Shown here piece by piece: positions 3,164 through 28,847 of a DNA stretch of 32,000 bases (within the stretch, counting starts at the first letter, position 1; the number at the start of each line of letters is the position of its first letter). The notes beneath the pieces were generated by a model. The model saw nothing but the letters and a program-made list of their open reading frames with translations, was not told the DNA's origin and searched no databases. Source of the DNA: Candidatus Methylomirabilis oxygeniifera (GTDB taxonomy: Bacteria > Methylomirabilota > Methylomirabilia > Methylomirabilales > Methylomirabilaceae); contig FP565575.1 of NCBI GenBank assembly GCA_000091165.1, positions 2,070,001 through 2,102,000 of the forward strand, written 5' to 3'. The position numbers and the translations under genes were made by a program.

Positions 3164-4804
3164 TTAATAAATATCCTTCACAGTGTTGTAGACGTTAAAC
3201 TTACCTGTCGGCGTGATGATGCGCGGATCGTCGATCCTGGCCTTCTCTTGCAGTGTCTTATCATCATACACGACGATCTCGCTCTTGCCGTCTTTCTTCC
3301 CCCAGACGCTGATCCACACCTCATCCCCGGCCTTATTGAACTCGAAATGCACAGCGCGACCTTTGTCCGATACCTTCCAGCACTTCGGATCTTTCTCCGG
3401 ATTCGCTTTCTCGAAAACGCAGACCTGCTTTTGAATGGCTGGATCGCCATTCAGGGCGTGATCTACCCAGACATTTTTACTCTTCGGGTGCGTCTTGATA
3501 AACAGGCCGCCTCCTCCGAGCGTCTTGAGATCCCTCACCTTTTTCCAGGCAGACTCCTTGTGCTTGGCCGGATCGGTACCGTAAACGGCGATCTTGCCTT
3601 CGCCGAGATGCGGGGTACCATTCACCGGACCGAATTTCGGATCGATCCAGTTGGCGCCACGTCCCGGATGAGGCTTGATTCCGGATTCGAAGATCGCCTC
3701 CAGCTTACCCTTCTCGACGTCGATCACGACCACCTTGTTCGCCATGTTAGCCGCCACCATGAAGTAGCGTTTGGTGCTGTCCCAGCCGCCGTCGTGCAGA
3801 AACTTCTCGCCTTGGATCTGGGTCATCTTGAGGTTCTTGAGATCCGAGTAATCGACAAGCCAGATCAGCCCGGTCTCCTTAATGTTAATGACCCACTCGG
3901 GCTTGAAGTGCGACGCCACGATCGAGGCGACCCGGGGCTCGGGGTGATACTCCATCGTATCGTAGGTCATGCTCCGACTGCTGATGACCTTCAGTGGTTC
4001 CAGCGTGTTACCGTCCGTCACAATAATCTGCGGCGGCCAATAGCAACCGATGACGGCCAGCTTGTCGGTGAAGTCACCGAGCTTACCTTTATACTTACTC
4101 GTATCGATAGAGCGCGCATCGCTGCACGGTTTGATCTCCGCGATCTTATCCGGAACCTTCATCCACAGATCGATCATCGTCGCCCGACCATCACGGCCGA
4201 TAGTATACATGTAGCGTCCCGAAAAGGAACTGCGCGAGATATGGACCGCAAACCCCGTCTTGACCGTGTTGACGATCTCTTTGGTATCGCCGTCGATGAT
4301 CGCCACCTGACCGGCGTCACGAAGGGTCACGGCGAAAAAGTTCTGCCAGTCACGGTTATGTTCTGGCTTCGTGGGTCGCTTATCCGGCGGCACGATCAGG
4401 TTCCAGCTTTTCTTCATATCCGCCATAGAGAGCTCGGGAGGTGTGGGCGGGTCATGCTGGATGTAACGGGCCATCAGGTCGCTTTCGGCGTCGGTGAGAA
4501 TGCCTTGCCGACCCCAGTCCGGCATCCCGCCTCCCGTACCATTCACGATGAACGCTTTCAAAACCGGTGTAGTCAAAGCGCGGGTTTTTGCCGGCAGAAG
4601 CTGCGGACCGGTTGCACCTTTTCTCAAGACCCCGTGACAGCCCGCGCACCGGTCGAAATAGATCTGCTTGGCCGCCTCAAGTTCGCCAGGGGCCAGCGGT
4701 GGAGCCGGTGGAAGCGCCGGCGGCGCCTCCGCAGCCAGAACCGGAACGGTCCATAGCATGCCTAGCGCCACAGTTAACACCGTCAACTTTGTTCTAGTCG
4801 TCAT
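3164..4804 (-). CDS. nirS: Cytochrome cd1 nitrite reductase NirS
   Basis: 546-aa ORF with a signal peptide (LTVLTVALGMLWTVPVLAAEA). The N-terminal domain has a single heme-c site (CAGCHG) and is followed by a ~430-aa d1-type beta-propeller. The SD is AAAGGAGAGGG, ending 2 nt before the ATG. Confidence 0.9.
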   Translation of the reverse strand: MTTRTKLTVLTVALGMLWTVPVLAAEAPPALPPAPPLAPGELEAAKQIYFDRCAGCHGVLRKGATGPQLLPAKTRALTTPVLKAFIVNGTGGGMPDWGRQGILTDAESDLMARYIQHDPPTPPELSMADMKKSWNLIVPPDKRPTKPEHNRDWQNFFAVTLRDAGQVAIIDGDTKEIVNTVKTGFAVHISRSSFSGRYMYTIGRDGRATMIDLWMKVPDKIAEIKPCSDARSIDTSKYKGKLGDFTDKLAVIGCYWPPQIIVTDGNTLEPLKVISSRSMTYDTMEYHPEPRVASIVASHFKPEWVINIKETGLIWLVDYSDLKNLKMTQIQGEKFLHDGGWDSTKRYFMVAANMANKVVVIDVEKGKLEAIFESGIKPHPGRGANWIDPKFGPVNGTPHLGEGKIAVYGTDPAKHKESAWKKVRDLKTLGGGGLFIKTHPKSKNVWVDHALNGDPAIQKQVCVFEKANPEKDPKCWKVSDKGRAVHFEFNKAGDEVWISVWGKKDGKSEIVVYDDKTLQEKARIDDPRIITPTGKFNVYNTVKDIY

Positions 4805-18200: not shown

Positions 18201-18752
18201 CTACTTGAAAGCATAGTTTATGTAGACGTGGTACGCTATGAGCAGCAACAACGCCATAGATAATCCGACATGGGCGCTGATCCACACCGGTCTGTACCAG
18301 GGCTTGTGGATTTTGACGATCTGAAAATTGAACAAGCCGGTGAGGAATGCCAGCAACAACGTCAGGCTGAGGATTTCGAGATAGCCGTATCCCAAGGTTT
18401 GGGAATGGCCAAAGAAAAACAACAGAAGCAGAGCGCCAAAAAGTTTGTGGCGACCCATCATGGTTGCGGCATTGCGCTGCTCCCCCTGAGCGCGCTTCAC
18501 GGAAAAACGCCACTGATAAAGAACAAACGCAAACAATCCGAAACCTGTGGCGAGCTTATACGTGTTGTCGTCTTGCAGTCCGGTCAACAAGGTCCACTGC
18601 CACCCGGTCGATTGCTGGACAATCAAAGCCACCAGCAGGAACAGGCCCAGCCAAAAATACCCCTTGGTGGGTACACCGGACCTCAGGCTGTCCGTCAGTG
18701 ACGATTTAAGTCGGTTGAAGCCTTGTATAACGACCAGGCTTTTAACGGGCAA
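18201..18752 (-). CDS. Small polytopic membrane protein (4-5 TM, conserved His), possibly a b-type cytochrome
   Basis: The track ORF 18201..19058 overlaps the upstream gene by 317 nt. I trimmed it to an in-frame TTG at 18752 (another lies at 18758); the first ATG is much further in. The TM segments are hydrophobic and carry His in or near them (FFFGHSQ, ISAHVGL, IAYHVYI). Confidence 0.45.
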   Translation of the reverse strand: MPVKSLVVIQGFNRLKSSLTDSLRSGVPTKGYFWLGLFLLVALIVQQSTGWQWTLLTGLQDDNTYKLATGFGLFAFVLYQWRFSVKRAQGEQRNAATMMGRHKLFGALLLLFFFGHSQTLGYGYLEILSLTLLLAFLTGLFNFQIVKIHKPWYRPVWISAHVGLSMALLLLIAYHVYINYAFK

Positions 18753-19611
18753 CGACAAGAGCGCCCCCTTCTTTGTTCGCTGCTGATCCGGGTTTTGGCT
18801 TGCTTGCCAGTGAGCTGAGCACCGCCAAAGTGTGCGGGGCTGTGCGCCTGGCGATTTCTCCCATGAACACCTCAGAGCTCGGCAGGAAATAACCCTCAGC
18901 CGGCCAGCGTTCGCCAATGGCGGGGGGATTGGCAAATTTCCGCGCCTTTTCAAGATAAGACTCGTAGGCTTCCTTGAAGCCTTGGCGTAAGGCGTCGAGC
19001 GTGCGGAGCAACTCGTCCATGGACACGCTGCCGCTTGGATACATCCACGTGGTCGCACCCATCACATCATTAAGCTTCCAGTCGTGCTTGGGTGATTGTT
19101 CGTGCTTGTTATGGCATTGAATGCAGCCCTCGACGACCGCCACATCACTGAACATGGCGACCTGCATTTGAATGTCGGGCATGAAAAAGAATTGCGGCTT
19201 AAGGGTTTGCTTGACCACCTGGAATTTTTCCAACTGCAGCCCCTCGAAGCGGTTCGCTGAGTTGACGGGATAGTCCGACCCCAGAAACAGGCTGAGCGGC
19301 GTCGGGTTCTTTTCCAGGCTTTTCGCCGTCTCACGTAGAAACAATGCGGGCAAAGGACCGGCCTCTACGTCCGCCTCACGCCAACGCTCGTCGAACTTCA
19401 AACCGGTCTGCTTGCCCGCGCCGACCACTTCCTTGGTCCACATTGCTCTCACCACGTCGTTTTCCGCCTTGAGAATCTCAAACATCCGTTCCACCGGGAT
19501 GGCCGCGTCGGCGGCCTTCTGCTCTTCCAATGGCGGCGGGGCACTGACAAACAGATAGATGCTCAAGGCACCCAGCGCCAGACAGGCGATCCAGAAGTTT
19601 TGTTTAGCCAT
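18742..19611 (-). CDS. Membrane-anchored c-type heme protein, DUF3365/Tll0287-like sensor fold
   Basis: Start ATG 19611 (MAKQNFWIACLALGALSIYLFV) overlaps the upstream stop (ATGGCTAA). There is a single CxxCH (VEGCIQCHNKHE) followed by WKLNDVMGATTW, resembling heme-c PAS-like sensor domains. Confidence 0.55.
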   Translation of the reverse strand: MAKQNFWIACLALGALSIYLFVSAPPPLEEQKAADAAIPVERMFEILKAENDVVRAMWTKEVVGAGKQTGLKFDERWREADVEAGPLPALFLRETAKSLEKNPTPLSLFLGSDYPVNSANRFEGLQLEKFQVVKQTLKPQFFFMPDIQMQVAMFSDVAVVEGCIQCHNKHEQSPKHDWKLNDVMGATTWMYPSGSVSMDELLRTLDALRQGFKEAYESYLEKARKFANPPAIGERWPAEGYFLPSSEVFMGEIARRTAPHTLAVLSSLASKPKPGSAANKEGGALVVAR

Positions 19612-20308
19612 CGTGACCATCCTGTTTTGCTTTGTAGTGAAGGGTTGTCCCATAAGGGGAGGGGCCACCGTCAAAATAGGCGCGGATTTTCTCTTTCGGC
19701 ATTCGCTTGTCGACCGATTTCTCAGTCTTCATGACGTGGTTGCCGTGGAAGTCGTGGCAGCCCAGGCAGGAGTCCCATTGCTTGTCGGCGATCAGGTCCG
19801 CATGGGACACGTCGATGGGATCTTTCTTTAAGCGGGTGTCCTTGTGGCAGTTCACGCAATAGTCGGTCTCCGCCAACGTGACACGCCTCCCCTGGTGCTC
19901 GGCGTGGCAAGAGACACACTGATGGGGACGCAGCTTTTCCCGAGCCTGGCTGAAACGGGGCTCGAGGAAGCGATAGACCGGGTGGCGGTCATTGGGTCGC
20001 TCGTGACAGGCCATGCAGTCCGCATTACCTACGGGAAGCCGTCCGAAGTAGGCGGGCACTTTACGCCAACCAACGGCATGGCGCAGATTGGCCTGAATCT
20101 GCTGGCGGAGGCTGCCTGGTGCGTTTTTATGGCAGGCCGCGCAGGCAAGCTTGCCGTGTCCTGTATTCATGGGTCCTTTCGCATGAAACCACTCCCCGAC
20201 GGGAAGCACGGTAAACGCCAGGATCGCAAATCCCAAACAGAAGCCGATCGCATAGGCGCGGTTTTGCCATTTCCGTGCCCCTCCAAGTTTCGCTCTCATG
20301 GCCGCCAC
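19604..20308 (-). CDS. Membrane-anchored pentaheme cytochrome c
   Basis: One N-terminal TM helix and five CxxCH motifs (CAACH, CMACH, CVSCH, CVNCH, CLGCH). The start is GTG 20308 or ATG 20299. Confidence 0.8.
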   Translation of the reverse strand: MAAMRAKLGGARKWQNRAYAIGFCLGFAILAFTVLPVGEWFHAKGPMNTGHGKLACAACHKNAPGSLRQQIQANLRHAVGWRKVPAYFGRLPVGNADCMACHERPNDRHPVYRFLEPRFSQAREKLRPHQCVSCHAEHQGRRVTLAETDYCVNCHKDTRLKKDPIDVSHADLIADKQWDSCLGCHDFHGNHVMKTEKSVDKRMPKEKIRAYFDGGPSPYGTTLHYKAKQDGHDG

Positions 20309-20419
20309 GTCAAGCTACGCGCCAGAAACTCACGCTGATGCATTAGGCCTTATCATGTCTGTCTACTGTGTAGCTTACCGGTAGCGAAGATGAAACGTCT
20401 ATTCACCCTCCGAATGAAG

Positions 20420-20465
20420 AGGGTGGGGGTGATCCGAAGGCAACCACTTGGCTCACCCCCACCCT
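20420..20465 (-). terminator. Stem-loop downstream of the 95-aa gene (possible terminator or processing site)
   Basis: 13-bp perfect stem: agggtgggggtga (20420-20432) and tcacccccaccct (20453-20465), with a 20-nt loop. There is no clear U-tract. Confidence 0.35.
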
Positions 20466-20497
20466 ATGCTTCCGGCCCTCAAGAGAACTTCTGAGAG

Positions 20498-20785
20498 CTA
20501 CTCGATGACCTCCATAATCCGACTCTGCACATTTGTGGCTAACTCCATGAGCTCGCTACGAAGCGCCTTGCGCTCATCGAGGGCCAAAATCTTATCGAAG
20601 TTGCTGAAGTCGCCGACCTCAATCGTAATGACCCGCTCCAACTTATTCGCCAAGTGGTCCCCATAGATGTGGAACCTCGAGACCCCTTGGTTGGCGAGCC
20701 AGAATTTTTTCATTTTACCGACTAAGAAGGCATCCAATGCGTCTTCTTTTCCTGGTGCGACTTCACACATGATGTGGTAGATCAT
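20498..20785 (-). CDS. Small cytoplasmic hypothetical protein (95 aa)
   Basis: Strong SD (AAAGGAGGAG) 6 nt before the ATG. No signal peptide. I recognise no family. Confidence 0.6.
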   Translation of the reverse strand: MIYHIMCEVAPGKEDALDAFLVGKMKKFWLANQGVSRFHIYGDHLANKLERVITIEVGDFSNFDKILALDERKALRSELMELATNVQSRIMEVIE

Positions 20786-21019
20786 CGTTGCTCCTCCTTT
20801 GACATCGGGTGTACGTTATGGTTGCCTTTCCTCGCCCCTGCACACGTCATCGATCACCCCCTCTCGGGATCAGTGCGTCGAACTGCCGCATACTCATCGA
20901 TCGCTTCGAGTGCTCTTGGGGGGCGCGCCGACTGTCGTCATTGAGTGCGATCCTGACGCACGCCTGCTACTGTAGCACTTAGCCATCATTCAGCGCACCG
21001 CTGCCATTGGGCTTAACGA

Positions 21020-21400
21020 CTATCGTCCTCCGGTAAAGCCTCTGACATAGACAACCAGATCCTTGATCTCGGACTCGGAAAACTTTAGCCCATATGCCGG
21101 CATCCCCCCCTTACTACCCTGCTTAATACTCCTGAAGAGGGCGTCATCGGACCGTGTTTGCATAAAGGCTGAGTTGGTTAAGTCTGGCACCCTAAACATA
21201 AAAAAAAGTGCTAATGCCTGAAACCCATTCCCCTTGCCGCTGGTGCCGTGGCATCTGGAGCATTTTGACTCGAAGTTCGACTGCCCGCTTACCGCACTTT
21301 TCGTCTCCGCGCCGGACGCGGAAGAGGCCCCCACAACGAACAACATCACCATCACGCCTAACCACTGGCAACGGAGCCGGGACAGAAAAAAAACGCGCAT
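21020..21400 (-). CDS. Monoheme class I cytochrome c (c55x-like), periplasmic
   Basis: Start ATG 21400, preceded by GAGGAGGG (the track offers 21445). Signal peptide (LGVMVMLFVVGASSASG), CSRCHG heme site, GGMPAYG distal Met, EIKDLVVYVRG tail. Confidence 0.8.
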   Translation of the reverse strand: MRVFFLSRLRCQWLGVMVMLFVVGASSASGAETKSAVSGQSNFESKCSRCHGTSGKGNGFQALALFFMFRVPDLTNSAFMQTRSDDALFRSIKQGSKGGMPAYGLKFSESEIKDLVVYVRGFTGGR

Positions 21401-21577
21401 CGTAATTGCCCTCCTCTCATCTAAAGGTGTAACCTGTGCGTGCATCGTTTTGTCACTCGTGTATACGTGGTTAGTGCGCTAACTCCATGATACCAAAGGG
21501 TCACGACCGGAACAATGCTTTTAAGCTGTAACGTTCGGGGTCGGATCTCACGTGTGAGGCGTCCGCGTTGACAAAGC

Positions 21578-21654: not shown

Positions 21655-24081
21655 TTAGAATGCCTCGTCGCCGGCCGCCCAAGCCTCCCGCTCCTTCGCC
21701 TTCTCCCTGTCGTAGATGGTCCATTCACCTTCCTCGACGACAGAGGCTTCGCGGACCATCCGCCCTGCTCTTGACAGAATGAAATAGACGAGAGGCAACA
21801 CGCCGCCAAACAGGAAGACCGCGCCGCCGATCGTGCGCATCCACGTCAAGGTAATCCACACACTATCCGTGACGTGCGCCTGTGCTCGGGCAGCCCAAAG
21901 GCCTTCCTTGAAGACGGTTGCAACCTGGTACAGACCGACAGGGAACAAGTCCAACATCATCATCAGCACCAAGCCGACCTGCAACGACCAGAAAATGCCC
22001 TTGATCAGCTTCTCATTCCAGGCAGAGCGCTGGAACAGGTGCTGGCAGGCAAACAGCATACCGGCAATGGCGATGTTACCCTTGACACCGAACATGGCGG
22101 CATGGGCATGGTTGCCGGTGAGGTAGGTGCCGTGCTCATAGTAGTTGACGATGGGCAGGTTGATCAACGAGCCGAAGACACCCGCGCCGAAGATGTTCCA
22201 GAAGTTGACGGCAAGAATGAACGTCCAGACGCCGTCCATCACGAAGCGCTGCTTACCCTCGGCAATGTTTTCATGGGCCTTGGTCCGCTCCGTCCGCATC
22301 TTCCAGGCGTCCAGGGTGATCAACAGCAGCGGCAGCACCTGCATGGTGGAGAAGACGCTGCCCAGTGCGATGATCCCTGTCGGCTTGGCGATCCAGTAGA
22401 AGTTGTGGGAGATCCCGATCAGGGCGGTTACCAGGAACATCATGACGGCCAGGAAGATAACCCGCTCGGCCATCGCCCGGTTGACCAGACCCATCTGCAC
22501 CAGCATGTACCCAACGATACAGGTGGTGAAGACCTCGAAGGTGACCTCAACCCACATGTGAATGTTCATCCACCGCCAGTAGTCGGCGATGGCGAAGTTC
22601 TGCGATGGGGTCATGAACATCCCGAAGAACAGGAACAGCACCATGATACCGCTGCCGTAGAACAGCCAAGCCGGCACTGACCAGAGGTTCTGGCTGGTGA
22701 TCCAGGGCTTCACAGCGCGGAAGATGATGTAGACCCACAGACAGAACGAGGCCAGCATCAGGATATGCCAGAAGCGGCCCAGCTCCAGGAACTCCCAGCC
22801 CTGGCTGCCGAACCAGTAGGCCATGTCGTCGGTCATGTACCCCGTGTGGCCAAGGTAGATGCCGAACAGCGCGCCTGCGCCGACGATCAGACATAGTGTA
22901 AAGAGCAGGTTGATCAGGAACCGCTGGCCGTTCGGCACCTTCGAAATGCGGGGCAGGAAGAAGAGAGTGTAGCCGACCCAGGCCATGAAGAACCAGTAGA
23001 TCTGCACAATGGTATGCCACCCGCGAGTAACGGTGAAGGGGATGGTGAACCCCAATACCGTTGTGGCGATGGCACTACCCGGTCCACCGCCGACGAAATC
23101 TTCGGCGCTCAGGATACCGGCCAGCACCTGCACCAGGAACAGGATGACAGCGAACGCAAAGAACTTATAGGTGGCGCGCTGAGTCGGCCGCACATAGGCA
23201 TCGCCCTTGTTTTCAAGGTCGACCGTGGTGAGCGACCAATCGCGCCCGTTGAACGGCTCGCCGGGCAGGACCTTCATCTCCCCGTAGACGTACAGGACCA
23301 GCATGGTGCCACAGAACAGCACGAAGATCGAGATGAAACTCCAGAGATAGGTCTCGAACGTCGGAGTATTACCGACTAGCGGATCGGGTGGCCAGTTGTG
23401 AGTGTAGGTATAGTCAAAACCCGGCCGATTCGCCCCGGAGACCCAACCTCCCCAGAAGAAATATCCCGCTAGTGCTTTGAGGTCTTCAGGGCTACTGATA
23501 TGATTCTCGATCCTGCCCTTCATGAACGCTTCTTCGTAGGTGGCATCCGTAAACATGCGCGTATAGTGCGTGATCAACTCCTGATACGCAAAGACCTGAG
23601 CCGGATTGATACGGATGATGTTAGCAGCCGCATCATACCCGTTCTCATGGATTTCGCGCTTGACCCTGACCGAGATCATATCGCGATCCGCCTGGGTGAC
23701 GGGACGCTCCTTCGCGATCTCATTTTCGTAGAACTTGCTCATTGATACATAGGTATGGTGTAGTGCTTCAGCGGTGAAATCCGGACCGCGTTCACCGCCG
23801 TCTCCCCAAAAAGAGCCATAGGTCATCAGACCTTTCAGATGAAAGACCTGTTTCCCGCGCTGGATCTGCCACTCGGGGATGACGGTTTCTCCGGTAGATG
23901 ACAAGACATAATTGGTCAATGGCGGAGCTGAGGTATAAGTCCATACACCGAGGGCAACCAACCCAATGACACTGATAACGGTCACGATCAAGGCGTGAAG
24001 CCACCAGTACTTCTTAATCAGCAAGGCTTGGCCGAAGGTCCTATTAGTTTTCCCCATTCCACTACTTGAACTAGATCTCAT
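21655..24081 (-). CDS. nod: qNOR-like heme-copper oxidase with altered active and quinol sites: candidate NO dismutase (downstream copy)
   Basis: 808 aa from ATG 24081, which has an AGGAGG SD 5 nt upstream (the track uses GTG 24102). Architecture: N-terminal TM helix, a heme-free periplasmic domain (no CxxCH), then a 12-TM core. Motifs: RGWH, YWRWMNIHMWVEV, GISHNFYW, STMQVLPL, GNHAHAAMFG. Confidence 0.85.
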   Translation of the reverse strand: MRSSSSSGMGKTNRTFGQALLIKKYWWLHALIVTVISVIGLVALGVWTYTSAPPLTNYVLSSTGETVIPEWQIQRGKQVFHLKGLMTYGSFWGDGGERGPDFTAEALHHTYVSMSKFYENEIAKERPVTQADRDMISVRVKREIHENGYDAAANIIRINPAQVFAYQELITHYTRMFTDATYEEAFMKGRIENHISSPEDLKALAGYFFWGGWVSGANRPGFDYTYTHNWPPDPLVGNTPTFETYLWSFISIFVLFCGTMLVLYVYGEMKVLPGEPFNGRDWSLTTVDLENKGDAYVRPTQRATYKFFAFAVILFLVQVLAGILSAEDFVGGGPGSAIATTVLGFTIPFTVTRGWHTIVQIYWFFMAWVGYTLFFLPRISKVPNGQRFLINLLFTLCLIVGAGALFGIYLGHTGYMTDDMAYWFGSQGWEFLELGRFWHILMLASFCLWVYIIFRAVKPWITSQNLWSVPAWLFYGSGIMVLFLFFGMFMTPSQNFAIADYWRWMNIHMWVEVTFEVFTTCIVGYMLVQMGLVNRAMAERVIFLAVMMFLVTALIGISHNFYWIAKPTGIIALGSVFSTMQVLPLLLITLDAWKMRTERTKAHENIAEGKQRFVMDGVWTFILAVNFWNIFGAGVFGSLINLPIVNYYEHGTYLTGNHAHAAMFGVKGNIAIAGMLFACQHLFQRSAWNEKLIKGIFWSLQVGLVLMMMLDLFPVGLYQVATVFKEGLWAARAQAHVTDSVWITLTWMRTIGGAVFLFGGVLPLVYFILSRAGRMVREASVVEEGEWTIYDREKAKEREAWAAGDEAF
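22000..23269. repeat. Near-identical tract shared with 25287-26553 (paralog homogenisation)
   Basis: By direct comparison, 22000-22099 equals 25287-25386 (100/100). 22271-22835 equals 25558-26122 (564/565; the mismatch is at 22587). 23110-23269 equals 26394-26553 (160/160). The segments in between are visibly diverged. Confidence 0.9.
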
Positions 24082-24376
24082 CGCTACCTCCTGTGGCCAC
24101 ACCTTTTACTGAGGTGGTCACATTCCCATTTCCACTGCTTGTTCTTTTCTTTCCATCCAATCTTTCCATCCAAGTCATCGTTGATGCCTATCGCGTCGGG
24201 GGCGCACGTACTTGGTCGGCAAACCGGAGACCGCGGGTTAGCCGCCCAAAGCCTGATCGACCATCCGGTAACCCTTTGCTCAACCTCTCGATCCACGTCA
24301 TAGGCCTCATGAGCGCACTCCTCCTTGACTCCAGCGCCATCAGCTTACAGTCAAAATGTAGACTCTCCGGCAGGGC

Positions 24377-24415
24377 TTGTAAATTGGATGATCGGCTTAA
24401 TTTTCGATGCAAATG
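24377..24415 (-). promoter_or_regulatory. Conserved upstream element TTGTAAAT-N21-GATGCAWATG (copy upstream of the downstream nod paralog)
   Basis: ttgtaaat (24377-24384) and gatgcaaatg (24406-24415), 296-334 nt upstream of the ATG. Two copies upstream of the other paralog share the same architecture. Confidence 0.45.
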
Positions 24416-24851
24416 CATTAGTCCTGTGGAGTGTAATTGTTGGCCTCAGAACCAGTAAGCCGTGTTAACCACCCGGCGGGACAAATCGGCAGAGGGTCTG
24501 TCCAGGAGGGGTGAGACGACTATCTTTTCAAGTCACTTGCATCGGCCGGGATAAGCTCCAGGCGTTACTATAGAACACCGTTATAGGTATTATAGGACGC
24601 GGTCGACACTAAGTCAAGCGGTCGCGTCCCATAGTGGCCAGATGACCCACGTTAACTCTTCGGCGCGATAATAACAACGTTCTACTTATTCTTATTGAGG
24701 ATGGGGAAGATTTGGAGGGTGTGGAGATTGTCGGGAGAGCGCACTTCGAGCGAGCAAAGGCGTGCATAGGACTACGAAAGCGGTCAGAGGTCAGGCGGGT
24801 ATCCGGCGGCTTGTGCGGCTGGCCAGCCTCAGAAGAAGGGATGGGGGAGCA

Positions 24852-24901
24852 TAAAAAACAATACCCCCCGGCACAACATCTCTGTTGTGCCGGGGGGTAT
24901 T
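24852..24901 (-). terminator. Strong intrinsic terminator after the upstream qNOR-like gene
   Basis: Perfect 19-bp stem: aataccccccggcacaaca (24860-24878) and tgttgtgccggggggtatt (24883-24901), with a 4-nt loop. On the minus strand it is followed by GTTTTTTAT. Confidence 0.9.
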
Positions 24902-24941
24902 GAAAGTGCGTGCTACTTACGTGCAGACTAAGAACGTTAGA

Positions 24942-27374
24942 CTAGAACGCCTCGTCAGAAGCGGCCCAAGCCTCTCGCTCTTTCGCCTTCTCTCTGTCGT
25001 AGATCGTCCACTCGCCCTCTTCAACGACGGCAGCTTCGCGGACCATCCGTCCAGCCCTCGACAGAATGAACCAGCACAGAGGCAGAACACCACCGAACAG
25101 GAAGACCACGCCGCCGATTGACCGAAGCCAAGTCAGCGTGTGCCATACCTCGTTGGTGACGAACGACTGCTGGCGGCCATACCAGAACCCATACTGGAAG
25201 ATGTGGGCGAGCTGATACAGACCGACCGGGAACATATCCATGAGCATCATCATCACGATGCCGACCTGCAGGGACCAAAAGACAGTCTTGATCAGCTTCT
25301 CATTCCAGGCAGAGCGCTGGAACAGGTGCTGGCAGGCAAACAGCATACCGGCAATGGCGATGTTACCCTTGACACCGAACATGGCGCCATGGGCATGGTT
25401 GTTGGTGAGGTAGGTGCCGTGCTCATAGTAGTTGACGATGGGCAGGTTGATCAACGAGCCCATGACACCGGCACCGAAGATGTTCCAGAAGTTGACGGCG
25501 AGGATGAACGTCCAGACACCGTCCATCACGAAGCGCTGCTTGCCCTCAGAAAGGTGCTCATGGGCCTTGGTCCGCTCCGTCCGCATCTTCCAGGCGTCCA
25601 GGGTGATCAACAGCAGCGGCAGCACCTGCATGGTGGAGAAGACGCTGCCCAGTGCGATGATCCCTGTCGGCTTGGCGATCCAGTAGAAGTTGTGGGAGAT
25701 CCCGATCAGGGCGGTTACCAGGAACATCATGACGGCCAGGAAGATAACCCGCTCGGCCATCGCCCGGTTGACCAGACCCATCTGCACCAGCATGTACCCA
25801 ACGATACAGGTGGTGAAGACCTCGAAGGTGACCTCAACCCACATGTGAATGTTCATCCACCGCCAGTAGTCGGAGATGGCGAAGTTCTGCGATGGGGTCA
25901 TGAACATCCCGAAGAACAGGAACAGCACCATGATACCGCTGCCGTAGAACAGCCAAGCCGGCACTGACCAGAGGTTCTGGCTGGTGATCCAGGGCTTCAC
26001 AGCGCGGAAGATGATGTAGACCCACAGACAGAACGAGGCCAGCATCAGGATATGCCAGAAGCGGCCCAGCTCCAGGAACTCCCAGCCCTGGCTGCCGAAC
26101 CAGTAGGCCATGTCGTCGGTCAGCATACCAGTGTGGCCGGCATAAATCCCGAACAGCGCACCGGCGCCAACGAGCACGCACAGCGCAAAGAGTAGGTTGA
26201 TCAGGAACCGCTGCCCGTTGGGTACCTTCGAAATGCGGGGCAGGAAGAAAAGGGTGTAGCCAACCCAGGCCATGAAGAACCAGTAGATCTGGACGATGGC
26301 ATGATAGCTTCGGACGACGCTGAAGGGGATGACGAGTCCGAACGCGCCCAAGATCGCTTCACCCGGTCCACCGCCGACGAAATCCTCGGCGCCCAGGATA
26401 CCGGCCAGCACCTGCACCAGGAACAGGATGACAGCGAACGCAAAGAACTTATAGGTGGCGCGCTGAGTCGGCCGCACATAGGCATCGCCCTTGTTTTCAA
26501 GGTCGACCGTGGTGAGCGACCAATCGCGCCCGTTGAACGGCTCGCCGGGCAGGGACTTCATTTCGCCATAGACGTACAGGACCAGCATGGTGCCAGCGAA
26601 CAGCACGAGGATCGAGAGGAAGCTCCAGATGTACGTCGCGTACGTCGGGAGGTTGCCGGCATCAGGATCATACGGCCAGTTGTGGGTATAGCTGTAGATC
26701 TCGCCCGGTCGATTTGCGCCGGCTACCCAGCCGCCCCAGAAGAAGTAACCCGCCAATCCCTTGATGTCCTCCGGGTTGCTGACATAGCTCTGAATCCGAC
26801 CCTTCTGGAATGCCTCTTCATAGGTGGGATCGGTGAACATCTTGGTGTAATGGTCGACCAATTCATTATACGCAAAGATCTGGGCATCGTTCAGGCGGAT
26901 GACGCCTGCTGCTGCGTCATAACCGTTCTGATGAATCTCTCGCTTGACCTTTCCCGCGATCCCGTCCTTCTCGTCCTGGGTTGCGGGGCGGCCCTGCTCT
27001 TTCTCAATCTGCATCTCATAGTACTTGCCCATGGAGACGAAGGTTCGATGCAGAGCTTCTGCGGTGAAATCCGGTCCGCGCTCTGCGCCGTCACCCCAGA
27101 AGGATCCGTAGAGCATCAGACCCTTCAGGTGAAACACCTGCTTTCCACGATTCATGGAATGCTCAGCAATGACCACGTCCCCTGATTTGCTTACGAAGTT
27201 AACCAGAGGGGGAGCGCCCGCGTAGGTCCAGACGCCGAGAGCAATCAAACCGATGGTGCTAATCGCGGTAACGATCAAAGCATGAAGCCACCAATACTTC
27301 TTGATAAGTAGTACTTGTGCAAATGTCCTCTCGTTCTTGCCCTTTGCTGCAGTTCCGCTGGGATTCGGACTCAT
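24942..27374 (-). CDS. nod: qNOR-like heme-copper oxidase with altered active and quinol sites: candidate NO dismutase (upstream copy)
   Basis: 810 aa from ATG 27374, which has a GGGAGG SD 5 nt upstream (the track uses GTG 27413). It has the same architecture and motifs as the other copy: RSYH, YWRWMNIHMWVEV, GISHNFYW, STMQVLPL, NNHAHGAMFG. Confidence 0.85.
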   Translation of the reverse strand: MSPNPSGTAAKGKNERTFAQVLLIKKYWWLHALIVTAISTIGLIALGVWTYAGAPPLVNFVSKSGDVVIAEHSMNRGKQVFHLKGLMLYGSFWGDGAERGPDFTAEALHRTFVSMGKYYEMQIEKEQGRPATQDEKDGIAGKVKREIHQNGYDAAAGVIRLNDAQIFAYNELVDHYTKMFTDPTYEEAFQKGRIQSYVSNPEDIKGLAGYFFWGGWVAGANRPGEIYSYTHNWPYDPDAGNLPTYATYIWSFLSILVLFAGTMLVLYVYGEMKSLPGEPFNGRDWSLTTVDLENKGDAYVRPTQRATYKFFAFAVILFLVQVLAGILGAEDFVGGGPGEAILGAFGLVIPFSVVRSYHAIVQIYWFFMAWVGYTLFFLPRISKVPNGQRFLINLLFALCVLVGAGALFGIYAGHTGMLTDDMAYWFGSQGWEFLELGRFWHILMLASFCLWVYIIFRAVKPWITSQNLWSVPAWLFYGSGIMVLFLFFGMFMTPSQNFAISDYWRWMNIHMWVEVTFEVFTTCIVGYMLVQMGLVNRAMAERVIFLAVMMFLVTALIGISHNFYWIAKPTGIIALGSVFSTMQVLPLLLITLDAWKMRTERTKAHEHLSEGKQRFVMDGVWTFILAVNFWNIFGAGVMGSLINLPIVNYYEHGTYLTNNHAHGAMFGVKGNIAIAGMLFACQHLFQRSAWNEKLIKTVFWSLQVGIVMMMLMDMFPVGLYQLAHIFQYGFWYGRQQSFVTNEVWHTLTWLRSIGGVVFLFGGVLPLCWFILSRAGRMVREAAVVEEGEWTIYDREKAKEREAWAASDEAF
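25287..26553. repeat. Near-identical tract shared with 22000-23269
   Basis: See the partner feature. The offset is +3287 for the first two blocks and +3284 for the third, because a one-codon indel lies between them. Confidence 0.9.
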
Positions 27375-27621
27375 TGTTACCTCCCGTGGTTCTACCTCAT
27401 TCGAGGTGACCACCTTGCATTGTTATTACCGTGCCGTCTTGAGTTGGGATGATCCCAATTCACCGGGGGCGCCCGCGCTTCGCGAACAGTGCACAGGGCG
27501 CGGGTTTGACGGCAACCGCCTGTTGGAACAGGCGGTGACCCGCTACACTGCTTACCGATTCTCATCATACCGTCCATGGGGAACGCCTCCTCTGCGCCAA
27601 TACTGCGATCCCCTGTAGGCT

Positions 27622-27660
27622 TTGTAAATCCTGCGACTGAATCAATCCGCGATGCATATG
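27622..27660 (-). promoter_or_regulatory. Conserved upstream element, proximal copy (TTGTAAAT-N21-GATGCATATG)
   Basis: ttgtaaat (27622-27629) and gatgcatatg (27651-27660), 248-286 nt upstream of the ATG at 27374. Confidence 0.45.
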
Positions 27661-27690
27661 TACTATACTATTTACTATCCTCAGTGAGAC

Positions 27691-27730
27691 TCGTAAATCC
27701 TGCGATTGACTCAATATGCTGATGCATATG
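27691..27730 (-). promoter_or_regulatory. Conserved upstream element, distal copy (TCGTAAAT-N22-GATGCATATG)
   Basis: A direct repeat of the proximal copy (gtaaatcctgcgaYtgaMtcaat...gatgcatatg) with a 69-bp period. It is bracketed by the perfect 10-bp inverted repeat cctcagtgag (27679-27688) and ctcactgagg (27736-27745). Confidence 0.45.
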
Positions 27731-27944
27731 CACCACTCACTGAGGTTTTAGAGAGATCCCAGGGACGCGAGAGGGTAAAACATATAAAACAGGGTTTACC
27801 CGATCACGCAGTAACCCGACGATCTGTCGGTCGGTCCATGGCGCGGTGCTTATCAAGACTGCGTCCATCAGAACAGTATTCTGATACACAATAGAAGAAC
27901 CGATCCTCACTAGATTTGGCTGTGAATCGCTTCATCCTCGCCCA

Positions 27945-28847
27945 TCACGCTGCCTTATTGGGCTCCTTTGGAGCCCCTGGCGCCTGTCCTGCCTCCGCGC
28001 GAGCCGCAGGCTCCCGCCGTGCAATCTCGTTCACGTAGGCGACAGCCTCCAGTCGTGAGTGAACCTTGAGCTTACTGAAGATGTTCTGGATGTGGTTTCT
28101 CACTGTAGTTTTACTGATGAAAAGCTGCTCCGCGATAGCCGCCGTCGTTGCGCCCGTCCGCATCAGGGTAACAACCTGCAGCTCTCGCCGAGTTAAGTCA
28201 CCGACAGGAGATACGGTCTTTTCGCTCGCCGTAAGTTGAGTCTGAGCCAGTTGTTGCCGAACAAGCACCTCAAGCTGGTGCGCCGCAGTGACATCACGGA
28301 AGAGATGAACAACTGTCGGGGGTTGGTTGTCCTCACAGGGAAGAGCAACACAGCTCACATCGATCCATAGCGGTTTACCCGTCCTCGTCCGAGTAGCCAT
28401 CTCGAAATGCTGGATCAGATCTCCACGGCTCAACGTCATCTTCAGCGGGCAAGGCCACTGACAAAGCTGATTGCCGTTACTATCACGGCCGTTGAAGAAC
28501 TCACGGCATTGCTGTCCGACAACTTGTTGCGCGGAAGCTTCCAGGATAGTTTCAGCGGCTTGGTTGCAGAACAGAATCTCTCCGGTCGGCGCACTGACAA
28601 ACACGCCATCGGCCGTCTCAGCGAAAAGCTTGAAGGCGGCTTCGCGTGGTTCCGTAGGCTGTCCGCTTCCCGGCTCGTTTCGCGAATCCTTTTCATCGAC
28701 TTCATCAACTGCAGGTGTAAGCCGATGCTCGTCTTCGCCGTCTATGCGGTAGTCGACTGCCTCGCCTGTACGGACACCGCCATCACGCCGCAGGCCTGCC
28801 CTGGAAATTCGCACCGAACGTTTCGGTCCGTTGCCTGAATGCGCCAT
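27945..28847 (-). CDS. PAS-domain LuxR/FixJ-family transcriptional regulator
   Basis: 300 aa. The central PAS-like region (DGVFVSAPTGEILFCNQAAETILE...LWIDVSCVAL...VVHLFRDVTAAHQLE) carries five Cys. The C-terminal LuxR HTH is LTRRELQVVTLMRTGATTAAIAEQLFISKTTVRNHIQNIFSKLKV. No good SD, so the start is uncertain. Confidence 0.75.
   Translation of the reverse strand: MAHSGNGPKRSVRISRAGLRRDGGVRTGEAVDYRIDGEDEHRLTPAVDEVDEKDSRNEPGSGQPTEPREAAFKLFAETADGVFVSAPTGEILFCNQAAETILEASAQQVVGQQCREFFNGRDSNGNQLCQWPCPLKMTLSRGDLIQHFEMATRTRTGKPLWIDVSCVALPCEDNQPPTVVHLFRDVTAAHQLEVLVRQQLAQTQLTASEKTVSPVGDLTRRELQVVTLMRTGATTAAIAEQLFISKTTVRNHIQNIFSKLKVHSRLEAVAYVNEIARREPAARAEAGQAPGAPKEPNKAA

What the first reader, a model, noticed from the sequence alone, without database searches (positions are those of the whole stretch)
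21655..27374. Tandem qNOR-like paralogs with a remodelled catalytic centre and no quinol site: candidate NO dismutases
Two adjacent minus-strand genes have the full quinol-dependent NO reductase (NorZ/qNOR) architecture. Each has an N-terminal TM helix, a periplasmic domain without CxxCH, and a 12-TM heme-copper-oxidase core.

The heme ligands are retained (R-x-W/Y-H; N-H-A-H-x-A-M-F-G). The first FeB block is also retained (YWRWMNIHMWVEV; His codon at 22558-22560 and 25845-25847).

Both copies differ from what I recall as conserved in canonical qNORs (Neisseria/Geobacillus type: G-T-L-H-H-L-Y, S-A-L-E-V-V-P-L, T-A-H-Y-T-V-E-G):
1. The helix-VII His-His pair reads GISHNFYW, i.e. His->Asn (AAC at 22402-22404 and 25689-25691).
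2. The helix-VIII Glu reads STMQVLPL, i.e. Glu->Gln (CAG at 22339-22341 and 25626-25628).
3. The stretch that supplies the quinol-binding His/Glu reads (S/G)AEDFVGG (23086-23106 and 26370-26390).

An NO-binding HCO enzyme with no quinol electron entry and an altered non-heme metal and proton path is what has been hypothesised for NO dismutase (2 NO -> N2 + O2) in NC10 nitrite-dependent methanotrophs. To my knowledge that activity has never been shown with isolated protein. nirS, the NO source, is in the same window, and no nosZ or norC is present.
Basis: partly seen in the sequence, partly recalled or inferred. Interest (0 to 1): 0.95.

Follow-up and report, generated by a model that had tools for sequence, protein, structure and literature searches.

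The report
Known putative NO dismutase genes

Summary
Two minus-strand genes (21655-24081 and 24942-27374) encode full-length qNOR-type proteins. Both keep the heme ligands, two FeB histidines and Glu512. Both have His560->Asn and Glu581->Gln, and both lack the quinol ligands His328, Glu332 and Asp746 (G. stearothermophilus numbering).

The finding is not new. The proteins are identical to CBE69496.1 and CBE69502.1, which are DAMO_2434 and DAMO_2437 of Ca. Methylomirabilis oxyfera. Ettwig et al. 2012 (PMC3413370) described the same substitutions in these genes and proposed NO dismutation. NOD is now a named heme-copper-oxidase family and a widely used marker gene.

In my 142-sequence alignment the Asn/Gln signature marks a clade with 100/100 bootstrap support.

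NO dismutation (2 NO -> N2 + O2) remains the best-supported function, at roughly 0.55. A reductase that makes N2O is the main rival.

By-products that I did not find reported:
- Gene conversion keeps the catalytic cores of the two copies identical.
- A conserved small upstream ORF with an invariant RAPP ribosome-arrest motif precedes each nod gene in Methylomirabilis.

The parts
21655..24081 (-). nod copy A = DAMO_2434 (CBE69496.1), 808 aa, putative NO dismutase
   Evidence: Exact match to CBE69496.1 on the 2,752,854-bp M. oxyfera contig. Pfam PF22085 + PF00115. AF2 pLDDT 82, TM 0.85/0.91 to qNOR 3AYF.
24942..27374 (-). nod copy B = DAMO_2437 (CBE69502.1), 810 aa, putative NO dismutase
   Evidence: Exact match to CBE69502.1. 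Pfam PF22085 + PF00115. E 4e-130 to 3AYF.
22402..22404 (-). Asn560 codon (AAC) replacing the third FeB histidine in copy A. The equivalent in copy B is 25689-25691.
   Evidence: Asn in 121 of 122 NOD-type sequences; His in all 20 canonical qNORs.
22339..22341 (-). Gln581 codon (CAG) replacing the catalytic-site Glu in copy A. The equivalent in copy B is 25626-25628.
   Evidence: Gln in 122 of 122 NOD-type sequences; Glu in 20 of 20 canonical qNORs.
23086..23106 (-). AEDFVGG stretch in copy A where the quinol ligands His328 and Glu332 of qNOR are replaced by Glu and Gly. The equivalent in copy B is 26370-26390.
   Evidence: These two positions vary within the NOD clade. Asp746 is also replaced by Gly.
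22558..22560 (-). Retained first FeB histidine (His508) in copy A. The equivalent in copy B is 25845-25847. Glu512 and His559 are also retained.
   Evidence: Invariant in all 141 sequences compared (121 NOD-type + 20 canonical).
22271..22835 (-). Catalytic-core tract that is nucleotide-identical between the paralogs except for one base (exact runs of 316 and 248 nt). The copy B equivalent is 25558-26122. Further identical runs lie at 23110-23269 and 22000-22099.
   Evidence: The flanks are about 56-78% identical. The same mosaic pattern is seen in two other Methylomirabilis genomes.
24859..24902 (-). Intrinsic terminator (20-bp stem followed by a T-run) directly after the DAMO_2437 stop codon
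   Evidence: Conserved in L001 and L003.
27392..27577 (-). Upstream small ORF of DAMO_2437 (61 aa, with SD GGAGG) carrying RAPP at residues 35-38 (codons 27464-27475): a candidate ribosome-arrest leader peptide
24188..24310 (-). Upstream small ORF of DAMO_2434 (40 aa) carrying RAPP at residues 35-38 (codons 24197-24208): a candidate ribosome-arrest leader peptide
27620..27733 (-). Two tandem ~44-nt conserved elements (27690-27733 and 27620-27663) containing an ATGCATATGCAT-type palindrome. The second overlaps a TTTACA-N17-CAGTAT promoter-like site (27600-27628). One related copy lies upstream of DAMO_2434 at 24376-24420, with promoter-like site 24355-24383.
   Evidence: The function as a regulator-binding site is inferred only.
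27945..28847 (-). PAS + LuxR-type (GerE) transcription regulator directly upstream of the nod pair, co-oriented with it
   Evidence: Pfam. The adjacency is conserved in L001, L003, L085 and L086.
21020..21445 (-). Monoheme c-type cytochrome (141-aa ORF) directly downstream of DAMO_2434, with no terminator detected between the two genes
   Evidence: It is CcoP-domain/c552-like, and NorC is not among the hits. It is absent from L001 and from nearly all nod loci outside Methylomirabilis.
3164..4804 (-). nirS (cytochrome cd1 nitrite reductase), the NO source. Neighbouring genes: a NirJ-like radical-SAM gene at 1729-2949 and a d1-domain gene at 549-1778.
   Evidence: Pfam Cytochrom_D1 E 1e-128 plus a cytochrome c domain.

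Best explanation
The two genes are DAMO_2434 and DAMO_2437 of Candidatus Methylomirabilis oxyfera. They are the founding members of the NOD family, a clade derived from quinol-dependent NO reductase.

Shown here:
- Each protein has the qNOR fold: an N-terminal TM helix, a heme-c-less cytochrome-c-like periplasmic domain and a 13-helix heme-copper-oxidase core.
- Each keeps the ligands of heme b and heme b3, two of the three histidines of the non-heme metal site, and Glu512.
- The third metal histidine is Asn and the nearby Glu581 is Gln.
- All three polar quinol ligands are lost.

Inferred mechanism, following Ettwig et al. 2012: NO made by NirS reaches the binuclear heme b3/non-heme-metal centre. 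With no route for external electrons, two NO molecules are rearranged to N2 + O2. The O2 then feeds particulate methane monooxygenase.

Expression, inferred from sequence: the two copies are separate transcription units. Each has a conserved leader with a RAPP-motif small ORF, and both lie downstream of a conserved PAS-LuxR regulator. Their catalytic cores are kept identical by gene conversion.
For: Identity. The proteins match CBE69496.1 and CBE69502.1 exactly, and PMC3413370 lists those accessions as DAMO_2434 and DAMO_2437.

Fold. E 5e-129 to qNOR 3AYF over residues 38-775. AF2 pLDDT 82, pTM 0.85, TM 0.85/0.91 to 3AYF.

Active site and quinol site. In 142 sequences, all 122 NOD-type proteins keep H508/E512/H559 and have Q581; 121 have N560 (one has Thr) and 97% have G746. 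Positions 328 and 332 vary freely, as expected for a site that has been lost. All 20 canonical qNORs have the His-His-Glu metal-site signature and His, Glu/Asp and Asp at the quinol positions in nearly all.

Phylogeny. The clade has 100/100 NJ bootstrap support, with at least 50% identity inside it and at most 34% to canonical qNORs.

Selection. Strict conservation of the altered site across many phyla, together with gene conversion of the core in three genomes, argues for a selected activity and not for decay.

No cis-encoded electron partner. There is no NorC and no conserved cis-encoded cytochrome partner across about 80 loci.

Literature. Whole cells form labelled O2 from 18O-nitrite and bypass N2O. 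[quoted passage not shown]
Against: No purified or heterologously expressed Nod has been shown to make O2 and N2, and no structure exists.

The low-spin electron-transfer heme b ligands are strictly retained. A redox-neutral dismutation would not obviously need them.

A 2024 preprint notes that foraminifera expressing Nod produce N2O (citing Woehle 2018).

In one metagenomic locus (L087) a nod with the full signature sits in a gene string with a diheme cytochrome c and nosZ.

Organisms without nod (N. maritimus, P. aeruginosa) also make O2 from NO, so O2 production by cells does not by itself point to Nod.

Glu at the His328 position in the Methylomirabilis lineage could in principle still form hydrogen bonds.
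Confidence: 0.55

Rival explanations
1. The proteins are still NO reductases that make N2O (2 NO + 2 e- + 2 H+ -> N2O + H2O) but take electrons from a donor other than quinol at the canonical site. Candidates are a soluble c-type cytochrome docking on the periplasmic domain, or a quinol bound elsewhere. A related variant is that they yield N2O plus O2, not N2 plus O2.
For: The heme b ligands His356 and His660 and Glu512 are invariant, so the electron-transfer cofactor is kept.

A monoheme cytochrome c gene follows DAMO_2434 with no detectable terminator, and this adjacency recurs in L003, L004, L083 and L084.

In L087 the gene order is nod, diheme cytochrome c, nosZ.

Foraminifera expressing Nod are reported to produce N2O. 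Several divergent HCO active sites are compatible with NO reduction (PMC11214002).
Against: The cytochrome c neighbour is missing in L001 and L085 and in nearly all nod loci outside Methylomirabilis. It is not NorC-like.

The M. oxyfera culture produces no appreciable N2O, and N2O is bypassed as an intermediate, although these are the most abundant NOR-like proteins in the cell (PMC3413370).

The proton-relevant Glu581 is replaced in every member. M. oxyfera also carries a canonical qNOR, DAMO_1889, for ordinary NO reduction.
Confidence: 0.27
2. The proteins bind NO but are not the O2-forming catalyst. They could serve as NO scavengers or buffers, as sensors, or as subunits of a larger complex, with another unidentified enzyme making the O2.
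For: O2 production from NO occurs in organisms that lack nod. More than a decade has passed without a demonstrated activity. The very high abundance would suit a buffering role.
Against: A complete two-heme plus non-heme-metal catalytic scaffold is under strict purifying selection, and the same two substitutions are fixed in every member. That fits a catalytic site tuned for a specific reaction better than passive binding. No alternative candidate enzyme is known in M. oxyfera (PMC3413370).
Confidence: 0.13
3. The genes are inactive relics of qNOR, meaning decaying paralogs, or the near-identity of their cores is an assembly artefact.
For: Key catalytic and quinol-binding residues of qNOR are lost. 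The genome was assembled from an enrichment metagenome, and the identical core tracts could in principle be collapsed reads.
Against: Both ORFs are intact. The altered residues are fixed across 122 sequences from many phyla. The literature reports very high transcription and protein abundance. The same mosaic identity pattern appears in two further independent assemblies, each with its own lineage-specific differences.
Confidence: 0.03

Closest known systems
NOD family (putative nitric oxide dismutase; Ettwig et al. 2010/2012; HCO-superfamily family 'NOD' in Murali et al. 2024)
   Same: Everything matches. The two proteins are the type members DAMO_2434 and DAMO_2437. The substitutions H560N and E581Q, the lost quinol site, the qNOR fold, and the genomic context with nirS are all as published.
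   Different: Nothing differs for the enzymes themselves.
Quinol-dependent NO reductase (qNOR/NorZ; G. stearothermophilus 3AYF, N. meningitidis 6L3H, A. xylosoxidans 8BGW)
   Same: Single-polypeptide architecture, 14 TM helices, and a heme-c-less periplasmic domain. The heme b and b3 ligands, two FeB histidines and Glu512 are shared. TM-score is 0.85/0.91.
   Different: The third FeB His is Asn, Glu581 is Gln, and His328/Glu332/Asp746 are lost. Identity is only 26-34%. The NOD proteins form a separate clade with 100/100 bootstrap support.
Cytochrome c-dependent NO reductase (cNOR, NorBC; P. aeruginosa 3O0R)
   Same: The catalytic subunit core fold and a binuclear heme b3/non-heme-metal centre (E about 1e-26; TM to target 0.85).
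   Different: There is no separate NorC subunit and no heme c site. The N-terminal domain is fused. The neighbouring cytochrome c is not NorC-like.
RAPP-type ribosome arrest peptides (ApdA, ApdP, CruR; PMC10951233, PMC7897499, PMC9426467, PMC12992588). This comparison concerns the leader ORFs only.
   Same: A small ORF with its own SD lies directly upstream of the regulated gene. The Arg-Ala-Pro-Pro motif is invariant at peptide level despite synonymous codon changes, and conservation stops right after the motif.
   Different: The downstream gene is nod, not a Sec/YidC, TonB-dependent or Cu-related gene. The peptide has no signal peptide or TM segment, and only about 35 residues precede RAPP, so the whole nascent chain would sit inside the exit tunnel. 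Arrest itself has not been tested.

Membership tests
NOD (putative NO dismutase) family | qNOR-type single polypeptide: N-terminal TM helix, cytochrome-c-like domain without CxxCH, and an HCO core | tested here: met
   Pfam PF22085 + PF00115. No CxxCH. Full-length alignment and fold match to 3AYF.
NOD (putative NO dismutase) family | Heme b and b3 histidines and two of the three non-heme-metal histidines retained | tested here: met
   His356, 508, 559, 658 and 660 plus Glu512 are aligned and invariant.
NOD (putative NO dismutase) family | Third non-heme-metal His (His560 in G. stearothermophilus) replaced by Asn | tested here: met
   AAC codons at 22402-04 and 25689-91. Column check.
NOD (putative NO dismutase) family | Active-site Glu581 replaced by Gln | tested here: met
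   CAG codons at 22339-41 and 25626-28. Column check.
NOD (putative NO dismutase) family | Quinol-binding residues (His328, Glu332, Asp746) absent | tested here: met
   The residues are Glu, Gly and Gly in both copies.
NOD (putative NO dismutase) family | Phylogenetic placement in the NOD clade, apart from canonical qNOR | tested here: met
   NJ bootstrap 100/100, with an identity gap of at least 50% inside against at most 34% outside. The sequences are identical to the type members.
NOD (putative NO dismutase) family | Catalyses 2 NO -> N2 + O2 | not testable with these tools
   This needs enzyme assays. The literature states that no characterisation exists.
Canonical qNOR (NorZ) | His3-Glu non-heme iron site plus the conserved Glu581 | tested here: not met
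   His560 is Asn and Glu581 is Gln.
Canonical qNOR (NorZ) | Quinol-binding His328 and Asp746 | tested here: not met
   They are replaced by Glu and Gly.
cNOR (NorBC) | Separate membrane-anchored heme-c subunit NorC encoded next to norB | tested here: not met
   The adjacent cytochrome c matches CcoP/c552/c6-type proteins, and NorC is not among the PDB hits at E<=1.
RAPP-type arrest peptide (leader ORFs) | Small same-strand ORF with SD directly upstream of the regulated gene, and a RAPP motif conserved at peptide level | tested here: met
   Found in 11 leaders, with RAPP at residues 35-38. The 8 leaders examined codon by codon use four Arg codons, three Ala codons and several Pro codons; three further leaders carry the peptide.
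RAPP-type arrest peptide (leader ORFs) | Translation arrest at the motif that controls downstream expression | not testable with these tools
   This needs toeprinting or reporter assays. The specific model of RAPP codons pairing with the nod SD held in only 1 of 8 leaders.
RAPP-type arrest peptide (leader ORFs) | N-terminal signal or TM segment, as in Sec/YidC-monitoring arrest peptides | tested here: not met
   The peptides are short and hydrophilic or basic, with no hydrophobic segment.

The most novel reading that the evidence does not exclude
The enzymes are known, but their control may not be. In Methylomirabilis each nod gene is preceded by a conserved leader ORF of about 40-60 codons with an invariant RAPP ribosome-arrest motif at residue 35-38 and no localisation signal. 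This would be a cytosolic, tunnel-confined arrest peptide governing expression of the putative O2-forming enzyme. It might respond to a small molecule or to the redox/NO state, or act through Rho-dependent attenuation as CruR does. In parallel, recurrent gene conversion keeps the catalytic cores of the two copies identical while their periplasmic domains and C-terminal parts diverge.
Probability: 0.4. Interest if true: 0.5.

Novelty: already known. Interest (0 to 1): 0.2.

Why it matters
NO dismutation would be one of very few biological routes to O2 and a fourth fate of NO in the nitrogen cycle. It bears on methane and N2O budgets and on ideas about oxygen before photosynthesis.

That importance belongs to the published hypothesis, not to this rediscovery. 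The open step is still biochemical proof.

The by-products found here could help that work:
- The leader ORF with its RAPP motif and the long structured leader may influence attempts at heterologous expression.
- The list of clade-specific residues (including W505M next to the FeB histidine) gives targets for mutagenesis.
- The nod-nosZ locus L087 points to an organism in which the N2O-versus-O2 question could be examined.

Tried and rejected
1. RAPP codons as an anti-SD. I tested whether the Pro-Pro codons of RAPP pair with and sequester the nod Shine-Dalgarno, as in SecM/MifM-type leaders. MFE and base-pair probabilities supported this only for the DAMO_2437 leader (2.2 of 4 nt) and gave about 0 in the other seven. 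Rejected as a general mechanism.

2. The RAPP leader as a general feature of nod genes. Among 76 nod loci with enough upstream sequence, only Methylomirabilis-type loci have it. Three unrelated hits equal the antisense background of 3/76. RAPP alone is not rare in this GC-rich window: 8 occurrences in six frames against 4.4 +/- 2.4 in shuffles.

3. The downstream cytochrome c as a NorC equivalent. Not supported, and the adjacency is not conserved outside Methylomirabilis.

4. Known RNA families. There were no Rfam matches at gathering threshold anywhere in the window.

5. A characterised or solved Nod. None was found in literature searches or in PDB sequence and fold searches.

6. NCBIfam. It gave no meaningful family for either protein.

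7. The near-consensus sigma-70 promoter at 24617-24589. It lies in a segment absent from L001. A weaker TTTACA-N17-TACATT site at 24383-24355, next to the conserved element, is the more plausible promoter for DAMO_2434.
Full report
**1. What is there**

The region holds two co-oriented minus-strand ORFs. From their annotated ATG starts they are 21655-24081 (808 aa) and 24942-27374 (810 aa). They are 82% identical to each other at protein level.

Pfam finds the NorB cytochrome-c-like domain (PF22085) followed by the heme-copper-oxidase subunit I domain (PF00115) in both. Neither protein has a CxxCH motif.

Every coordinate in the finding checks exactly:
- His CAC at 22558-60 and 25845-47.
- Asn AAC at 22402-04 and 25689-91.
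- Gln CAG at 22339-41 and 25626-28.
- AEDFVGG at 23086-106 and 26370-90.

**2. Is the motif registration right?**

Yes. phmmer against PDB sequences aligns protein A end to end with G. stearothermophilus qNOR 3AYF (E 5e-129) and with A. xylosoxidans qNOR.

In G. stearothermophilus numbering, both copies:
- retain His355, His651 and His653 (heme b and b3 ligands), and His508, Glu512 and His559;
- have His560->Asn and Glu581->Gln;
- have His328->Glu and Glu332->Gly;

An AlphaFold2 model built on a 52-sequence alignment is confident (pLDDT 82, pTM 0.85). It superposes on 3AYF with TM 0.85/0.91. All top hits are qNORs, followed by cNOR NorB and cbb3 oxidases.

The model has 14 hydrophobic helices, one N-terminal and 13 in the core.

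**3. Whose genes are these?**

Protein A is identical to CBE69496.1, and protein B is identical to CBE69502.1. Both lie on a 2,752,854-bp contig of Candidatus Methylomirabilis oxyfera.

Ettwig et al. 2012 (PMC3413370) list these accessions as DAMO_2434 and DAMO_2437. That paper states that in these proteins:
- one coordinating histidine is consistently replaced by asparagine;
- a glutamate near the catalytic centre is replaced by glutamine;
- a proper quinol-binding site (His328, Asp746) is lacking.

[quoted passage not shown] NOD is now treated as a named family of the heme-copper-oxidase superfamily (PMC11214002) and nod is a widely used marker gene. The finding is therefore an accurate rediscovery of a known hypothesis, in the very genome where it arose.

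**4. Independent tests of the family-level claims**

I combined four sets of sequences in a 142-sequence alignment:
- 118 close homologs from the 5.8-billion-protein search;
- 20 full-length representatives from the exhaustive 50%-cluster search;
- two solved qNORs;
- the two window proteins.

All 122 proteins with the altered site keep H508/E512/H559 and have Q581. Of these, 121 have N560 and one has Thr, and G746 is present in 97%. Positions 328 and 332 vary freely (E, T, M, N, F, I, L, V, S and G, S, K, R and others), which is the signature of a site no longer under selection.

All 20 distant full-length representatives have the canonical His-His-Glu metal-site signature and, in nearly all, His, Glu/Asp and Asp at the three quinol positions.

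The Asn/Gln proteins form one clade with 100/100 neighbour-joining bootstrap support. Identity is at least 50% inside the clade and at most 34% to canonical qNORs. One representative, P0125 (44% identical), has Asn/Gln but retains His328, so it looks like a deep-branching intermediate.

Four further columns separate the clades: I363F, L469V, W505M (three residues before the FeB ligand His508) and G553A.

**5. Status of the functional claim**

[quoted passage not shown] - My searches for purification, heterologous expression, cryo-EM, or any 2025-2026 characterisation found none.
- The PDB copy holds no NOD-type chain.

The evidence for dismutation remains physiological. Labelled O2 forms from 18O-nitrite, N2O is bypassed, and these two proteins are very abundant while the canonical qNOR DAMO_1889 is weakly expressed.

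**6. Mechanism and rivals**

I rate NO dismutation as the most likely function, at about 0.55. The reasons are the complete loss of the quinol site, the absence of NorC, the lack of any conserved cis-encoded cytochrome partner across about 80 loci, the strictly fixed altered metal site, and the whole-cell data.

The main rival, at about 0.27, is an N2O-forming reductase with another electron donor. Four observations support it:
- The electron-transfer heme b ligands are invariantly retained.
- A monoheme cytochrome c gene lies directly downstream of DAMO_2434 with no detectable terminator.
- N2O production is reported in Nod-expressing foraminifera.
- In L087, a nod 77% identical to DAMO_2434 with the full signature is followed by a diheme cytochrome c and a bona fide nosZ.

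A non-catalytic or accessory role (about 0.13) and a relic or artefact (about 0.03) are less likely given the conservation.

**7. Things found on the way**

(a) Gene conversion. Nucleotide identity between the paralogs is mosaic. It is about 56-78% in the 5' third (codons 1-280) and the 3' end (codons 721-818). Exact identical runs of 316, 248, 160 and 100 nt cover the catalytic core.

In two other Methylomirabilis genomes the same pattern holds. In the core, paralogs within a genome are as similar as or more similar than orthologs between genomes, most clearly at codons 561-600 (0.99-1.00 against 0.93-0.96). In the flanks the order is reversed. This indicates recurrent gene conversion and is unlikely to be an assembly artefact of one genome.

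(b) Transcription units. A 20-bp-stem terminator follows DAMO_2437 (24859-24902) and is conserved in the other genomes. Each nod gene has its own conserved leader. A PAS-LuxR regulator is conserved upstream of the pair.

(c) Leader ORFs. Each leader contains a small ORF with its own SD whose peptide carries an invariant Arg-Ala-Pro-Pro motif at residue 35-38. I found it in 11 leaders: two in the window, two each in L001 and L003, and one each in L004, L032, L084, L085 and L086.
- In the 8 leaders examined codon by codon, the motif is encoded by four different Arg codons, three Ala codons and several Pro codons.
- Substitutions are enriched at third codon positions.
- Conservation ends right after the motif.

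RAPP is an established ribosome-arrest motif (PMC10951233, PMC7897499, PMC9426467). A 2025 survey found RAPP/RGPP small ORFs upstream of many gene classes, including nosZ, but its text and supplements contain no entry for NO reductase, cbb3-type oxidase or Methylomirabilis.

The leader ORF is decayed or absent in three Methylomirabilis-like leaders (L005, L081, L086 copy B) and in all other phyla. The peptide has no localisation signal. A model in which the RAPP codons mask the nod SD failed. How the leader would act is therefore unknown.

**8. Verdict**

- Observation: confirmed.
- Interpretation: supported as a candidate assignment, and identical to the published one.
- Novelty: already known.
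- Interest as a discovery: low.
- The leader ORF and the gene conversion are modest, apparently unreported additions.

Noticed in passing
window 27392-27577 (-) and 24188-24310 (-); also L001, L003, L004, L032, L084, L085, L086: Each nod gene in Methylomirabilis is preceded by a small ORF with its own SD. Its peptide (pattern M..M.WIDKQ..G..PGR.G..R..R.L....E.RAPP) has an invariant RAPP ribosome-arrest motif at residue 35-38. The motif is kept through synonymous codon changes, and conservation stops right after it. I found 11 copies. It is decayed in L005, L081 and L086 copy B, and absent outside this lineage. I did not find it reported.
   Followed up: partly
window 22271-22835 vs 25558-26122; also 23110-23269 vs 26394-26553 and 22000-22099 vs 25287-25386: The two nod paralogs share exact nucleotide-identical runs of 316, 248, 160 and 100 nt over the catalytic core, while their flanks are only about 56-78% identical. 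In two other genomes the core is likewise as similar or more similar between paralogs than between orthologs, most clearly at codons 561-600. This indicates recurrent gene conversion.
   Followed up: partly
window 27620-27733 (-) and 24376-24420 (-): Conserved ~44-nt elements with an ATGCAT(A/T)TGCAT palindrome followed by ATTGAGTCAAT-like and CGCAGGATTTAC sequences. There are two tandem copies upstream of DAMO_2437 and one upstream of DAMO_2434, each next to a TTTACA-N17 promoter-like site. They are candidate binding sites for the adjacent PAS-LuxR regulator or for an NO/O2-responsive factor.
   Followed up: no
window 27386-27413 (-) and 24093-24121 (-): A hairpin (GTGGNCACC...GGNAGANCCAC) lies immediately 5' of the nod Shine-Dalgarno in all leaders. 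The consensus has 8 pairs, 2 with compensatory changes. Its role is unknown.
   Followed up: partly
L087:4001-10237: In a metagenomic contig, a nod gene 77% identical to DAMO_2434 with the full Asn/Gln/AEDFV signature is followed by a 74-aa ORF, a diheme cytochrome c and a bona fide nosZ. It is preceded by a type II DMSO-reductase-like molybdoenzyme set (with an EB_dh subunit). This was the only nod-nosZ adjacency in the 84 loci scanned. It is relevant to the question of whether the product is N2O or O2.
   Followed up: partly
P0125 (representative library, 781 aa): A protein 44% identical to DAMO_2434 has the Asn560/Gln581 site and Gly746 but retains His328. It branches at the base of the NOD clade and may be an evolutionary intermediate between qNOR and NOD.
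   Followed up: no
window 18201-21445 (-): Downstream of DAMO_2434 lies a co-oriented cluster: a monoheme cytochrome c, a 95-aa ORF, a multiheme cytochrome c (paired CxxCH), a Tll0287-like protein and one more ORF. The cluster is present in L003, L004 and L084 but missing from L001 and L085, where nod is followed directly by the NAD synthase gene. It is therefore an accessory cluster, not an obligatory partner.
   Followed up: partly
L004 and L032: Contigs carrying Methylomirabilis-type nod genes (97% and 82% identical, with the same leader ORF) are binned in public MAGs labelled 'Patescibacteria group bacterium' and 'Peptococcaceae bacterium'. These are probably binning errors.
   Followed up: no
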